A stretch of DNA of 7,207 nucleotides from a virus (taxonomy: Duplodnaviria; Heunggongvirae; Uroviricota; Caudoviricetes): IMG/VR virus record IMGVR_UViG_2675903559_000012. One strand, given 5' to 3'. The position numbers are program-made. Position 1 is the stretch's first letter. The number at the start of each line of letters is the position of its first letter. Positions 3,001 to 6,000 of the stretch are shown piece after piece.

Positions 3001-6000
3001 ACCTACCGGAATTTTTTTCCGGTTAAACGTTAATCAGGCTGGTGGGCTTTACCTGTTCGGTAGGTGTTATGATTATCGTAATACCTTTCCCCCAATGGGG
3101 TAAAAGCATCAACCGTAACGAAAGTCGTTATGGTTGCCACTGATACCCCAAATTTGGGTATCACGAGTAAGACCCAAAATCTGGGTGTTACTCTTACTAC
3201 CCAAACTACGGGTAGTTTCCGTAGTTTCATGGTCGAGTTGCAGATCTGCAACTCCCCCATTAACCACAGGCGAATTTCCGCCTTCGGTCATTCCTTAATC
3301 ATCTGCGTAATCATAATGATTATTCAGCAAGCGCAATTTTGCGCTTTGCTTAAAGTTCAGCGAGTTACCGCGCCGACTTCCTCAAATTGAGGTTTCCGAA
3401 AATATCAGCGGGTTAGCGATTAAGCTGATCATTAATTAAACTGCGAAAATTTCGTAGTTTGTGACTGTCTTTCAGGCAGCTTGTTAACAGTCCTCAGAAG
3501 CGAGGGATGTAGCCACCCATTTTTGGTCCGTCGGGAATATCAACCAGTTACCGCCGCAACCGCTCCGGCTTCTTCCAGTGGTACGTTATTTTCTCCTTCT
3601 CCCGATACATCTCCACGCGGCGACGGTAGGCCAGCAACTCAAGAACTCTGGTTCGTATGTTGCGCATATCCACGCCATTAAGTTCTATACCATCACGGCG
3701 CATCACCTCAGCAACAACACGCGCATAGTTTTCGGCTGTCACGCTGTCCGGCTGCGTGGTCTGTTCGTCAGCCTGCTGGCTGATTCCAGAGACGCGGCGG
3801 ATTAATCGCAGTATTTCGGATTCAGTCATAGCGTACTACGTTACTTATCTTTATTCGGCTGCAACTTTTCCGGTACGTTTCCGGTTGTTTCTTTCAAGTA
3901 ATCAGCCAGTATCTGTGGGAGGTTGTCGGCAACTCTGGCACTGGCATTACAGGCTTTAACCACTTCCCTTTTAAGCCTATCCAGCATGGCGGGGGTAATC
4001 TGTGGGAAGCTCCTTTGCATAGTAAGCGGGAGGCTGTCCATGATTGATGAAATCTGACTCGCCAGCTTTGAAAGCGCGTACAGGCAAAACTCAGTATCGA
4101 TCACGTCACCGCGATCGCGCTCGTTTTTAAGTTCCTGCGCCTCCGCCTGTGCTGTCAGTAATCTGATCCTGACTCGTAAGAGTTCATCATCATCAATATC
4201 GCCTTTGTCGTTTGTAAGCTGGCTAATTGCATTGTTAACCCTATTGTCTATCACGCTGGCAACATCGTAAAACGCCTCACGGCCTTTACGTTCAACGGGA
4301 GTCACTCCCCACTTGTCGAACGCTGTCGCACTTACACGGCAGCTTTTCGCCATGTTTTTTTTGTTCATCAGGTGCGATTTCATTAATACACCAACTTAAT
4401 TACTGCTTCAGGTTGGTGTATTGTTTGCATCTTTCCCTTTTCATTCATAAAGATAGAGCAAACAACAAAACCACCACCACCCCCCTGAAAAGGCTCATAA
4501 ATAGCGAAAAACCGCGAGGTCGCCGCCCCGTAACGGGTCCATATGCCGGAAAGGACCCGTAAAAAAAAGCCGGATTTCTCCGGCCTTGTCTCAGATGGTT
4601 TTCAGTATGCGATCGATGTCGCCGTCATCGCCCTGGTTTCTGCCATCGTATGCCATGCCAGCTGATACGGCTTGCGGGCTGTGCATGTCCATAAAGTTTT
4701 CAAAGGCTGCGGTAAGTTCCGGCGCAACCTTCGGACGTTCCTGCTCTATGGTCATGCTAAGGATGCTTTTAGCCGTACCAACATCGATACAAGGCACGTT
4801 TGCCATTGCACGTAACAGCGGCTGATAGTCGCCAGATTCATCAAGCGCCATAATCGCATCAGCGCGCGGCTTGTCCTGCTCTTCCAGTTTGTTAAGTTGA
4901 TATATGGCCTCGTAGGTTGATAACCCTCTGTCAGCCATTGCCCGCGCTTCGGCTTTAAATTTACTCGCCAGCGGTAGCGTCATGATGCTTTCATTCGTTG
5001 CCATCGTTCCCCCTGCTTATCGGGCCAGCGGCTGAACGGATACGCCAGAACCCGCAAAGGCGGCGCATTTTTTCGCATCGGTGTCGACGCTCTCAGGCCA
5101 GTTAACGGCGGCAATATTGAATATCCCCGTCTTGTAACACTGTGCTGATTTCTGCTTTGACGTGTCCACAGGATACGAAGTCAGATAAACAGCCTTGCCA
5201 GATTCCTGACCATCCCACGGCTTAAACTCGCCATTGTCCGCCAGCATCAGCGGGGTAAATTCCTGAATAACGCCAGCATCAACGGCAAAATGTACCAGCG
5301 TCGTGGCGACCTGCTGACTGCCTGCAAATAACTCAATGTATGGAGTGTCCATAGAATCCCCCGTTAAGCAATTTTGACGGTAACAAATTTGCGAATATCT
5401 GCCGGAACCGGCTGCGGTGCGCTGTGCGTCTGCACGTACTCAATCGCCGGATCGCCGTCCTCAATCCAGTTTTTCGGGTAAAACATGTTTTGCGTTGCGC
5501 CCGTTCTTACTGCGTCCTGATCCATAATCGCACCATAGGCCACCAGCCCTTTATTGTTGGTGTTGCCCAGGACAAGCAAATCAGGCTCAAGGAAATATTT
5601 TTCTGTGCCGTCGCTGTCGGCGTATTTGCCGGAATAGACGATAAGGGCAATATCGCCCAGATAGCCTTTAAAGCTCACCACTTCGCCCAGGTTTTTACAG
5701 GCCAGCTCTGCGGCGGACTCTGAACCACGGGAAAGATCGTACAGCTCACGGAATTTTTTAAAGCTGCGTAACGTGCGCCATACCTCAGCGCCCATAATCA
5801 TGACGTTTGCGGGGCAACCAGCCTGATCAGCATAAAGCTCGATGTCATAGATTGGATCGTGTGTTTCCTTATCTGCCTCTGACCACTTTTTACCCGGTCC
5901 CTGTCTGGCGATGTTTTTACTTGGGATCTTCCAGTCTATTTCATAGCGTTCTATGCCTTCGCCCTCAATGATGTTTTTTCCGGTCGTTATCGCATTCACC

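What the first reader, a model, noticed from the sequence alone, without database searches (positions are those of the whole stretch)
4385..4560. cos core nearly identical to lambda, with divergent flanking sequence between cosN and the small terminase start
The cosN overhang sequence and about 20 nt on either side are almost identical to lambda, but the region where lambda carries its cosB terminase-binding elements is replaced by different sequence, including an 11-bp inverted repeat (4385-4422) and a poly-purine/poly-pyrimidine run near 4470-4490. This pattern fits an element that is cut by a lambda-like large terminase while being recognised specifically by its own small terminase. The strong terminator at 4561-4584 just upstream of cos would also stop late transcripts before cos, unlike lambda.
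Basis: partly seen in the sequence, partly recalled or inferred. Interest (0 to 1): 0.65.

Follow-up and report, generated by a model that had tools for sequence, protein, structure and literature searches.

The report
Phage satellite's own cos packaging site
This is the DNA-packaging (cos) site of a small phage-parasitic island in E. coli: it keeps the cutting and termination signals of lambda-like helper phages but pairs them with its own recognition repeats and its own small terminase, a known piracy strategy in a version nobody appears to have tested.

Summary
On the minus strand, window 4563-4484 aligns to lambda -34..+45. cosQ GGGTCCT is at 4552-4558, the 12-nt overhang at 4517-4528 is identical, and similarity stops just before lambda R3. 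The 11-bp inverted repeat and the terminator are real. The "purine/pyrimidine run" is actually a 27-nt A/C-only run.

The element is not a phage. It is the right half of a Gram-negative phage-inducible chromosomal island (PICI) inserted in tqsA. It has gpE-like capsid, gpD-like decoration and Nu1-like TerS genes, but complete relatives carry no TerL, portal or tail genes.

Its cosB is not foreign sequence. It is a diverged N15/"Monarch"-class tripartite cosB:
- R3' (TGGTGGTGGTTTTGTTGTT, 4461-4481)
- inverted R2' (4407-4423)
- R1' (4385-4395)

R3' and R2' keep sequence and position even in Enterobacter/Citrobacter satellites whose TerS is only 57-59% identical, where the rest of cosB is unalignable. 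All 63 cos sites next to this TerS type carry R3'. On helper-embedded contigs, satellite and helper share cosQ-cosN but differ in cosB and TerS.

The principle is published for Rpp-type PICIs. This full-length-TerS version is a modest new variant.

The parts
4552..4558 (-). cosQ (GGGTCCT), the packaging-termination element
   Evidence: It lies inside an 18/18 identical block with lambda 48469-48486, at the same 30-nt distance from the nick as in lambda. It is kept in nearly all 66 related cos sites; one has GGGGCCT. The 7-bp definition of cosQ comes from PMC4669245 and my own knowledge.
4515..4530 (.). cosN; the nicks flank the 12-nt cohesive end GGGCGGCGACCT (4517-4528 on the minus strand)
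   Evidence: It is 16/16 identical to lambda. Cleavage itself is inferred, not shown.
4484..4516 (-). cosN-proximal conserved spacer (+13..+45, the position of lambda I2), which fixes the cosN-to-R3' distance
   Evidence: It is 28/33 identical to lambda. No indels occur here in 37 unique family sequences.
4461..4481 (-). R3' (E1), GGTGGTGGTGGTTTTGTTGTT at bp 48-68 (conserved core TGGTGGTGGTTTTGTTGTT, bp 50-68): proposed primary TerS binding site, lying inside the 27-nt A/C-only run 4459-4485
   Evidence: It sits at the lambda/N15 R3 position. Mean pairwise identity is 0.955 against 0.80-0.86 for the flanks. It matches distant Enterobacter HE-PICIs 18/19 where flanks match 5/13 and 13/37. It accompanies the T-class TerS at 63 of 63 sites. 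It matches the R3 region of a Monarch-like helper 15/19 in register.
4407..4423 (-). R2' (E2), CAATACACCAACCTGAA at bp 106-122, inverted relative to R3'; it contains the inverted-repeat arm 4412-4422
   Evidence: 15 of 17 columns are invariant in the family. It matches Enterobacter HE-PICIs 11/12 at the same position. It is one substitution away from the helper-type R2 ATACAACAACC. With R3' it forms an 18-nt, 78% inverted repeat (pair I2).
4385..4395 (-). R1' (E3), GTTGGTGTATT at bp 134-144: a direct copy of the R site and the second inverted-repeat arm; it overlaps the terS ribosome-binding region
   Evidence: It is a perfect complement of 4412-4422. It varies between subgroups (GTGGGGATAT, GTTGTGGTAT, GTTGGGATAT) and is absent in Enterobacter relatives. 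This fits an accessory site like lambda R1.
3841..4383 (-). terS: a full-length Nu1-family small terminase, 180 aa
   Evidence: Pfam Phage_Nu1 2.3e-23. PHROG terminase small subunit 2.9e-53. 35% identity to lambda Nu1 over 179 aa. The DNA-binding domain is 59% identical to N15 gp1. 1st/2nd codon positions are 78% invariant against 36% for 3rd positions across 37 alleles.
4558..4587 (-). Intrinsic terminator after the 137-aa gene (stem 4566-4587, T-run 4558-4565), abutting cosQ
   Evidence: It is present at 28 of 57 TerS-type cos sites and also at cos1 of the Rpp-type island NCTC86.
4591..6419 (-). Context: capsid module upstream of cos, comprising a gpE-like major capsid protein (5364-6419), a gpD-like decoration protein (5017-5352) and a 137-aa protein (4591-5004)
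   Evidence: Pfam Phage_cap_E 3.3e-50 and HDPD 2.4e-17. The 137-aa protein matches the C-terminal part of PHROG 53, head maturation protease, at 9e-9.
2801..3829 (-). Context: right end of the island, comprising a 93-aa conserved gene (3548-3829), about 750 bp without genes, and the junction with the disrupted tqsA at about 2800
   Evidence: Similarity to islands at other chromosomal sites starts at window 2801. The tqsA 5' end is at 2646-2800.

Best explanation
Window 4384-4587 is the cos site of a Gram-negative phage-inducible chromosomal island (PICI) that encodes its own small terminase but no large terminase.

Proposed mechanism:
1. After a lambdoid helper is induced, the island excises and replicates into concatemers.
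2. The winged-helix N-terminal domain of the island's TerS (N15 class, recognition helix T-AFDKWGV) binds the island-specific R3' (4461-4481) and the inverted R2' (4407-4423). R1' (4385-4395) acts as an accessory site.
3. The TerS C-terminal region, which resembles that of E. coli lambdoid Nu1 proteins, recruits the helper's gpA-type TerL.
4. TerL nicks the helper-identical cosN to give GGGCGGCGACCT ends at 4517-4528. It terminates at the next cos using the helper-identical cosQ.
5. The helper's own TerS reads a different R sequence, so the two genomes are sorted by cosB. The satellite competes with the helper for TerL.

Shown directly by sequence: the identity of cosQ and cosN, the cosB anatomy and its conservation, the TerS homology and its domain pattern, the absence of TerL, and the helper/satellite contrast on shared contigs.

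Inferred, not shown: binding of TerS to R3'/R2', recruitment of TerL, cleavage at cosN, and interference with the helper.
For: cos core: lambda -34..+45 aligns; phage matches are confined to 4483-4565; PhiR5_1 is 95.8% identical over cosQ-cosN.

Satellite identity:
- Complete relatives run int, HTH regulator, primase/helicase, SSB, capsid, decoration, 137-aa gene, cos, terS, 93-aa gene. They are about 10.5 kb, sit at different chromosomal sites, and have no TerL, portal, tail or lysis genes.
- 763 of 5,426 complete E. coli genomes carry this cos plus terS.
- This matches the published PICI core set of int, regulator, pri-rep, capsid and terS (PMC10085698).

TerS:
- It is a full-length Nu1 homologue.
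- As a query, the N-terminal 76 aa finds only N15 and Pseudomonas-phage TerS. The C-terminal 69 aa finds E. coli lambdoid Nu1 best, with PhiR5_1 at 54%.
- Across 20 homologues, 31 residues are invariant within positions 1-48 and only 3 within 128-180.
- The model's N-terminus is beta-alpha-alpha-beta-beta-alpha. The best Foldseek hits are a viral packaging-motor domain and MerR/excisionase winged helices.

cosB:
- R3' and R2' are the most conserved non-coding blocks.
- They survive at identical coordinates in Enterobacter/Citrobacter satellites with 57-59% identical TerS (18/19 and 11/12), while the flanks match at a low level that I take to be near chance: 5/13, 13/37, 7/28.
- There is a complete association between protein type and the sequence at the R3 position: T-class TerS with TGGTGGTGG at 63/63 sites, N15/Monarch-like TerS with GGTTGTTGT, Rpp with CACCACCACC, and lambda Nu1 with CGTTTCC.

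Homology to a real phage cosB: the helper prophage on L033 has an N15-type TerS and R3 / inverted R2 / R1 = GGTTGTTGT(T/A)T. The window aligns to it without gaps. This is the 'Monarch' architecture described in PMC4669245.

Same-contig helper/satellite pairs: on L067 and L024 the helper has a lambda-type Nu1 and, where its cos lies within the locus (L067), lambda-type R sites. The helper on L033 is Monarch-like. In L067 and L033 cosN..+34/36 is near-identical between helper and satellite while cosB differs.

Precedent: EcCICFT073 has lambda-like cosQ and cosN, a different cosB, and a winged-helix protein (Rpp) that redirects packaging (PMC6092414 and PMC6739421).
Against: - There is no experimental evidence for binding, cleavage or transfer of this TerS-type island.
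- No IHF consensus lies between R3' and R2' at one mismatch or fewer, unlike lambda I1.
- No sigma-70-like promoter for terS was found downstream of the terminator, so how terS is expressed is unexplained.
- The TerS C-terminus is only 32-54% identical to any phage TerS in the collection, so partnership with a helper TerL is a guess.
- The satellite on L033 sits in a helper with a PhiR5_1-like TerL yet has the other C-terminal variant, so the C-terminus does not track the helper type cleanly.
- R3' and R2' match each other only 14/18, and the R3 region is low-complexity, so part of the similarity to N15 R3 could be compositional.
- The structure model is of low confidence (pLDDT 60).
- N15-class TerS is known to be permissive, since N15 packages lambda DNA (PMC4669245). 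Strict sorting between helper and satellite is therefore not guaranteed.
Confidence: 0.72

Rival explanations
1. The island TerS works like Rpp rather than as a stand-alone small terminase. It forms mixed oligomers with the helper's TerS through the conserved central self-association region. The hybrid complex reads the island cosB, and the helper TerS supplies the TerL contact.
For: - The central region (residues 51-120) is the part most similar to lambdoid Nu1 proteins: 29-35 of 70 residues identical.
- The sister islands use exactly this trick and need the helper TerS (PMC6739421).
- The C-terminal 50 residues are poorly conserved within the family.
Against: - Unlike Rpp (144-153 aa, lacking the last 30-40 residues; PMC9026076), this protein is full length. 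It aligns to the end of Nu1, including the LKxxxxKAxN...P..L..Y pattern.
- It has no sequence match to RppC in the PDB.
- It occupies the genomic position where Rpp sits in the sister islands, as an alternative and not an addition.
Confidence: 0.12
2. The 11-bp inverted repeat is mainly a regulatory element and not a pair of terminase sites. It would act as an RNA hairpin that hides the terS ribosome-binding site, or as an operator.
For: - As RNA the repeat folds at -14.5 kcal/mol, z = -3.8.
- Its 3' arm ends one base before the terS ATG, so it covers the GGTG Shine-Dalgarno-like sequence.
- A terminator upstream implies that terS needs its own control.
Against: - The hairpin is not conserved. 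In the L005 subgroup the equivalent RNA folds at -7.6 kcal/mol, z = -0.4.
- Changes in the 3' arm are never compensated in the invariant 5' arm.
- The 3' arm is absent in Enterobacter relatives, which keep the 5' arm at the same coordinate.
- In Monarch-like cosB the same two elements lie about 80 bp apart.
Confidence: 0.1
3. The region is a fossil: the leftover cos and Nu1 gene of a decayed lambdoid prophage, no longer used for packaging.
For: - O157 relatives were long annotated as defective prophages (PMC2669165; PMC6092414).
- The window element lacks the second cos found in most relatives.
Against: - The same compact architecture recurs at several integration sites and in 14% of complete E. 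coli genomes.
- terS is under purifying selection.
- cosQ, cosN, R3' and R2' are better conserved than the synonymous sites next to them.
- The family extends to other genera with the same sites.
- Sister islands are experimentally mobilised through these cos sites.
Confidence: 0.05

Closest known systems
EcCICFT073-type E. coli PICIs: cos1 plus Rpp (Fillol-Salom 2018, 2019; Murialdo & Feiss 2022)
   Same: - The island backbone and gene order are the same.
- The terminator-cosQ-cosN segment is identical: NCTC86 cos1 matches the window up to about +30.
- cosB is island-specific and read by an island-encoded winged-helix protein whose gene starts right after cos.
- The proposed R3 lies at bp 48-65.
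   Different: - Rpp is 144-153 aa, lacks the TerL-binding tail, and must heterodimerise with the helper TerS. The window instead encodes a full-length 180-aa Nu1 homologue with no detectable similarity to RppC.
- The R3 sequence differs: GACACCACCACCA in Rpp islands against TGGTGGTGGT here. It is the same trinucleotide motif on the opposite strand.
- Rpp-type cosB has been described as having a single R site. This one has R3', R2' and R1'.
Phage lambda cos (cosQ-cosN-I2-R3-I1-R2-R1)
   Same: - cosQ, its spacing, cosN and the +13..+45 segment are nearly identical.
- The order and orientation of three R-like elements are the same, with R3' and R2' at about the lambda R3 and R2 coordinates.
- The terS gene follows cos.
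   Different: - The R sequences are unrelated to lambda's CGTTTCC.
- No IHF consensus is present.
- cosB is about 45 bp shorter: the terS ATG is at bp 146 against 191 in lambda.
- A terminator lies immediately upstream of cosQ.
- No TerL gene follows terS.
N15 / 'Monarch'-class packaging specificity (Feiss et al. 2015, PMC4669245)
   Same: - The TerS DNA-binding domain has the short architecture and the AFDKWGV recognition helix, at 59% identity.
- The R3 position and its three-base periodicity are in register.
- The tripartite R3 / inverted R2 / R1 layout matches the Monarch-like helper on L033.
   Different: - The first recognition-helix residue is T instead of Q, and the preceding residue is A instead of V.
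- R3 differs at bp 54, 57, 62 and 63, and R2 at bp 113.
- There is no remote rR2 copy inside terS.
- cosN is lambda-type, not N15-type.
- The module is carried by a satellite without a TerL.
SaPI small terminase (pac SaPIs) and the cos-type SaPIbov5
   Same: The logic is the same as for pac SaPIs: a satellite TerS pairs with the helper TerL to package satellite DNA (as summarised in PMC6739421).
   Different: - SaPI TerS systems use headful (pac) packaging.
- SaPIbov5 carries the helper's cos and has no TerS of its own.
- Here a cos-type satellite has its own TerS and a private cosB.
Capsid-forming PICIs (cf-PICIs)
   Same: They are satellites in Enterobacteria that carry capsid and terS genes.
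   Different: cf-PICIs encode TerL, portal, protease and connectors and take only tails from the helper (bioRxiv 10.1101/2022.09.08.507074, abstract). Complete relatives of this island have none of these genes.

Membership tests
lambda-like cos site | cosN: a 12-nt 5' cohesive-end sequence with flanking nick sites, closely matching GGGCGGCGACCT | tested here: met
   The 16-bp cosN at 4515-4530 is identical to lambda.
lambda-like cos site | cosQ: the 7-bp GGGTCCT at a fixed distance upstream of cosN | tested here: met
   It lies at 4552-4558, with the same 30-nt spacing as lambda 48473-48502.
lambda-like cos site | cosB: TerS-binding R sequence(s) starting about bp 48-50, with R2 inverted and R1 direct in complex sites | tested here: inconclusive
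   The architecture is present: R3' at bp 48-68, an inverted R2' at 106-122, and R1' at 134-144. R3' and R2' are conserved. Binding has not been tested.
lambda-like cos site | An IHF site (I1) between R3 and R2 | tested here: not met
   WATCAANNNNTTR has no match at one mismatch or fewer within 4385-4484. N15 also lacks I1 (PMC4669245).
lambda-like cos site | Terminase cleavage producing cohesive ends in virion DNA | not testable with these tools
   This needs end-mapping of packaged DNA.
Gram-negative PICI (Fillol-Salom 2018; SatelliteFinder core set) | Integrase, AlpA-type regulator and primase/replicase upstream, transcribed in one direction | tested here: inconclusive
   These genes lie outside the 7.2-kb window. 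They are present in relatives with 89-99% identical cos/terS (L076, L003, L005, L006).
Gram-negative PICI (Fillol-Salom 2018; SatelliteFinder core set) | A capsid-type gene and terS are present, while TerL, portal, tail and lysis genes are absent | tested here: met
   Pfam and PHROG assignments. No TerL lies within any island; the only TerL matches are 9 kb or more away in helper prophages. Annotations of complete relatives agree.
Gram-negative PICI (Fillol-Salom 2018; SatelliteFinder core set) | Helper-phage-dependent induction, packaging and high-frequency transfer | not testable with these tools
   This is shown only for the Rpp-type sister EcCICFT073. O157 Sakai Sp7, possibly the same family, was excised and packaged but not transferred. 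I could not verify that Sp7 belongs to this family.
Rpp-type packaging redirection | An Rpp protein: about 145-153 aa, homologous to RppA/B/C, lacking the TerL-binding tail | tested here: not met
   The window protein is 180 aa, aligns full length to Nu1, and has no PDB match to RppC. The NCTC86 protein at the same position matches RppC at 3e-31.
Rpp-type packaging redirection | The R3-PICI sequence shared by Rpp islands (..ACCACCACC.. at bp 55-63) | tested here: not met
   The window has TGGTGGTGGTTTT at bp 50-62, which is the complementary motif.
N15/Monarch packaging specificity | TerS recognition helix identical to N15 (SVQAFDKWGV) | tested here: not met
   The window has SATAFDKWGV. It belongs to the same domain class but differs at two positions.
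N15/Monarch packaging specificity | R3 = GAGGTTGTTGTT at bp 48-59 | tested here: not met
   The window has GGTGGTGGTGGT at bp 48-59, matching 7/12 in register.

The most novel reading that the evidence does not exclude
The TerS/R3' pair (recognition helix T-AFDKWGV with TGGTGGTGG) may be a packaging specificity private to satellites. It would have been derived from the N15/Monarch class by a few coupled changes in the recognition helix and in R3/R2. That would give a fourth lambda-family packaging 'code', after lambda, 21 and N15, used only by helper-dependent islands. Most relatives would then hedge by carrying a second, inverted cos whose cosB copies whichever helper type they meet (PhiR5_1-like, 21-like or Monarch-like). 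This would also explain the unexplained cos2 of EcCICFT073-type islands.
Probability: 0.35. Interest if true: 0.55.

Novelty: new variant of a known kind. Interest (0 to 1): 0.4.

Why it matters
Lambda-type packaging specificity is a classic model of protein-DNA recognition with only three characterised codes: lambda, 21 and N15.

This island family is present in about one in seven complete E. coli genomes, including O157:H7 and O55:H7. It appears to carry a further code, together with the protein that reads it.

If confirmed, three things follow:
- It would show a second route by which Gram-negative cos satellites capture a helper's TerL: replacing the helper TerS outright rather than heterodimerising with it through Rpp.
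- It would give a natural pair of closely related TerS/R-site specificities (T/GGT against Q/GTT) for dissecting recognition.
- It would offer an orthogonal cos/TerS module for cosmid or PICI-based DNA delivery.

These islands also carry virulence regulators (PerC here), so their packaging determines how those regulators spread.

Tried and rejected
- Two scans of one-genome-per-species contigs found nothing: one protein-based and one with an exact cos pattern.
- A PDB sequence search with the TerS gave only chance hits.
- The AlphaFold model is poor (pLDDT 60). It supports only the N-terminal winged-helix topology, and Foldseek E-values are weak.
- An IHF consensus search of cosB was negative.
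- The sigma-70 promoter scan found no promoter for terS.
- A search for an N15-like remote rR2 copy of R3'/R2' inside terS was negative.
- Rfam found nothing in the window.
- I tried to tie the second cos of the O157 island to a specific sequenced phage. The best match was only 76% identical.
- I tried to confirm that O157 Sakai Sp7 is this island family. The paper's text does not give the locus.
- Feiss et al. 2015 in Virology (PMC4461450), which defines Monarch, is not held. The Monarch comparison therefore rests on PMC4669245 and on the L033 helper.
- I first read the TerS as a chimera of an N15-type DNA-binding domain and an E. coli-type tail. I softened this after finding a natural lambdoid helper (L033) with the same combination.
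- I considered the idea that the TerS C-terminus tracks the helper TerL type. I did not adopt it, because the L033 satellite contradicts it.
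Full report
**What is in the sequence.**
The minus strand of 4384-4600 runs as follows: a stop codon of a 137-aa gene (4591), a hairpin plus T8 terminator (4587-4558), cosQ, cosN, about 100 bp of non-coding DNA, and the ATG of a 180-aa gene at 4383. I use lambda numbering, n = 4529 minus the window coordinate.
- A local alignment to the joined lambda ends places lambda -34..+45 on window 4563..4484.
- The cosQ block matches 18/18, with GGGTCCT at 4552-4558.
- The 16-bp cosN is identical, with the overhang at 4517-4528.
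- +1..+45 matches 40/45.
- Similarity ends just before lambda R3.
- Against 50,697 phage records, nothing matches beyond window 4483-4565.
- The 11-bp perfect inverted repeat (4385-4395 / 4412-4422) and the terminator are real and non-random.

**What the element is.**
- The window holds E. coli ydgD, mdtI, mdtJ and the 5' end of tqsA. Then, from about 2801, comes foreign DNA whose genes all lie on the minus strand.
- Those genes are PerC, a 68-aa gene, a lambda gpE-family capsid protein, a gpD-family decoration protein, the 137-aa gene, cos, a Nu1-family small terminase and a 93-aa gene.
- Relatives with 86-99% identical cos/terS show the whole element. It is about 10.5 kb and runs integrase, small HTH regulator, Icd-like genes, primase or RepA helicase, SSB, then the same right half. 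It sits at cspD/clpS, phoQ/roxA or thiM.
- None has a large terminase, portal, tail or lysis gene.
- This is the Gram-negative PICI architecture of Fillol-Salom et al. 2018 (PMC6092414) and the SatelliteFinder core set of int, regulator, pri-rep, capsid and terS (PMC10085698).
- 763 of 5,426 complete E. coli genomes carry this cos plus terS.

**What was already known.**
- For the sister island EcCICFT073 it is published that cosQ and cosN resemble lambda while cosB is completely different.
- It is also published that a 144-153-aa winged-helix protein, Rpp, heterodimerises with the helper TerS to read the island cosB (PMC6092414, PMC6739421).
- Murialdo and Feiss placed the Rpp site at bp 48-65 (PMC9026076).
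- NCTC86 carries such an island. The protein after its cos1 matches RppC at 3e-31. Its terminator-cosQ-cosN segment is identical to the window's up to about +30, after which the two diverge.
- The window has, at the same position, a full-length Nu1 homologue. It is 35% identical to lambda Nu1 over 179 aa and has no match to RppC.
- I found no paper in the searchable library that analyses the cos of this TerS-carrying type.

**Anatomy of cosB.**
- An exact-pattern scan of IMG/VR returned 62 loci. Together with the other loci held, these gave 66 cos sites of this kind, 57 of them followed at bp 146 by the same terS.
- Across 37 unique sequences, two blocks stand out:
  - bp 48-68, TGGTGGTGGTTTTGTTGTT (window 4461-4481), mean pairwise identity 0.955
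  - bp 105-121, CAAyACACCAACCTGAA (window 4408-4424), mean pairwise identity 0.942
- For comparison, the flanks score 0.80-0.86, and only 36% of terS third codon positions are invariant.
- The block next to the ATG (4385-4395) is variable.
- The decisive comparison is with satellites from Enterobacter and Citrobacter whose TerS is only 57-59% identical. Ungapped, they match the window 18/19 and 11/12 in the two blocks. Between and around the blocks they match only 5/13, 13/37 and 7/28. The third block is absent.
- The two conserved blocks are imperfect inverted copies of each other, 14/18 (pair I2).
- They lie where lambda has R3 (50-65) and about where it has R2.

**Where this cosB comes from.**
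- The TerS N-terminal domain is 59% identical to N15 gp1, with the same short winged-helix layout and the helix AFDKWGV. It is only 38% identical to lambda Nu1.
- Used alone as a query, this domain finds only N15 and Pseudomonas-phage TerS. The C-terminal third finds E. coli lambdoid Nu1 proteins best.
- Several IMG/VR loci are satellites inserted in the portal gene of a lambdoid prophage, so helper and satellite lie on one contig.
- On L033 the helper has an N15-type TerS (SVQAFDKWGV) and a PhiR5_1-like TerL (93% identical). Its cosB is R3 GGTTGTTGTTT (bp 51-61), an inverted R2 ATACAACAACC (bp 108-118) and a direct R1 GGTTGTTGTAT. This is the tripartite 'Monarch' arrangement described by Feiss et al. 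(PMC4669245).
- The window aligns to this helper cosB without gaps: 35/36 over bp 1-36, 15/19 over bp 50-68 and 10/12 over bp 106-117.
- So 4461-4481 is R3', 4407-4423 is R2' and 4385-4395 is R1'.
- R1' decays in some subgroups and is lost in others. This fits the accessory role of lambda R1 and the single-R cosB of N15.

**Evidence for private recognition.**
- Across all cos sites held, the sequence at the R3 position and the downstream protein are completely associated:
  - (A/V)T-AFDKWGV TerS with TGGTGGTGG, at 63 of 63 sites
  - VQ-AFDKWGV TerS (N15 and the L033 helper) with GGTTGTTGT
  - Rpp with CACCACCACC
  - lambda Nu1 with CGTTTCC
  - PhiR5_1 Nu1 with CATGTCAG
- In the TerS family, 31 residues are invariant within positions 1-48 and only 3 within 128-180. 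The DNA-reading end is fixed along with R3'/R2', while the presumed TerL-binding end varies.
- On L067 and L024 the helper has a lambda-type Nu1. On L067, where the helper cos lies within the locus, it also has lambda R sites. On L067 helper and satellite match 34/34 over cosN..+34 and 28/31 in the cosQ-cosN stretch. They then diverge.
- The window's own cosQ-cosN spacer is identical in type to that of phage PhiR5_1, at 95.8%.

**Mechanism and its status.**
- I conclude that this is a working-type cos. The helper TerL cuts cosN and uses cosQ. The island TerS supplies recognition through R3' and R2', with R1' as an accessory site. Its C-terminus recruits the helper TerL.
- The anatomy, conservation, associations and helper/satellite contrast are shown directly by sequence.
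- Binding, TerL recruitment, cleavage and interference with the helper are inferred.
- Weak points:
  - There is no IHF consensus between R3' and R2'.
  - No promoter for terS was found after the terminator.
  - The C-terminus is only moderately similar to any known phage TerS.
  - The L033 satellite's C-terminal variant does not match its helper.
  - The structure model is low-confidence.

**The terminator.**
The hairpin at 4566-4587 is convincing. However, it occurs at only 28 of 57 TerS-type sites, always together with the 137-aa gene. It also occurs at cos1 of the Rpp-type island. The other half of the family has a different upstream gene and no terminator. It belongs to the upstream gene cassette and is not part of cos, and its effect on terS expression is unknown.

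**The hairpin alternative.**
As RNA, the inverted repeat folds well in this subgroup (-14.5 kcal/mol, z = -3.8) and would cover the terS ribosome-binding site. Three observations count against it as the conserved function. The fold is not conserved (-7.6 kcal/mol, z = -0.4 in the L005 subgroup). Changes in one arm are never compensated in the other. In the Monarch-like helper the arms are about 80 bp apart. A lineage-specific side effect on translation remains possible.

**Verdict.**
- The principle is already published for Rpp-type PICIs, and terS is a recognised PICI component, so this is not a new kind of system.
- Three things appear undescribed:
  - the cos anatomy of the TerS-carrying E. 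coli islands
  - their derivation from the N15/Monarch class with coupled changes in the recognition helix and the R sites
  - the apparent restriction of this pairing to satellites
- I rate it a new variant of a known kind, with interest 0.4.

Noticed in passing
window 3135-3270: Four consecutive hairpins lie in the gene-free right end of the island. The RNA MFE is -55.7 kcal/mol on the plus strand and -65.5 on the minus strand, with z = -8.9 and -7.8. There is no Rfam family match. The core is nearly invariant in 19 related island loci while both flanks diverge, and only 3 pairs show compensatory change. Function and strand are unknown.
   Followed up: partly
L076 (between its terS and 93-aa genes); L003 12920 (+); L004 7032 (+); absent from window 3829-3841: Most relatives carry a second cos in inverted orientation between terS (or rpp) and the 93-aa gene. 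Its cosB copies a helper type: PhiR5_1-like (CATGTCGGTACT), 21-like (CAGATCC) or N15/Monarch-like. In the Rpp-type NCTC86 island, cos2 bp 48-63 (GAGGTTGTTGTTTAAT) is identical in sequence and register to N15 R3. This may explain the unexplained cos2 of EcCICFT073. The window island has only 11 bp at this position and no second cos.
   Followed up: partly
window 4470-4479 compared with L004 cos1 (bp 52-64 from its cosN): The proposed R3 of Rpp-type islands (GACACCACCACCA) and the R3' of TerS-type islands (TGGTGGTGGT) are the same trinucleotide-repeat motif on opposite strands, at nearly the same distance from cosN. This could be coincidence, an inversion, or a shared ancestry of the two recognition systems.
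   Followed up: no
window 4591-5004 (-): The 137-aa protein just upstream of cos matches the C-terminal part of PHROG 53, head maturation protease, at 9e-9 over profile positions 494-567 of 583. From memory, this may correspond to where lambda's nested scaffold Nu3 lies; I did not check it. With the gpE-like and gpD-like genes, the island may therefore carry a capsid, decoration and scaffold-like trio. RefSeq calls one allele a head-tail connector.
   Followed up: no
L010, L011, L024, L033, L037, L067 (portal gene); L071-L075 (capsid gene E): Satellites of this TerS type are found embedded inside late genes of lambdoid prophages. In E. coli-like contigs an ORF beginning MKTPTIPTLLGPDG, which I recognise from memory as the lambda portal gene B, is split (not checked against an annotated gpB). 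In Enterobacter/Citrobacter contigs the capsid gene E is split. These are helper-embedded PICIs as described in PMC10111431, but they carry terS, whereas the type example there was reported to lack it.
   Followed up: partly
window 2800-2812 (-) and 3538-3550 (+): There are two perfect matches to the IHF consensus WATCAANNNNTTR. One lies exactly at the junction between the island and the disrupted tqsA, and the other just before the stop codon (3548-3550) of the 93-aa gene. The total count in the window is not above chance.
   Followed up: no
window 2646-2800: The island interrupts tqsA after about 50 codons. The other relatives examined sit at cspD/clpS, phoQ/roxA or thiM, so this copy presumably has a different integrase, which lies outside the window. 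No relative at tqsA was among the hits I inspected.
   Followed up: no
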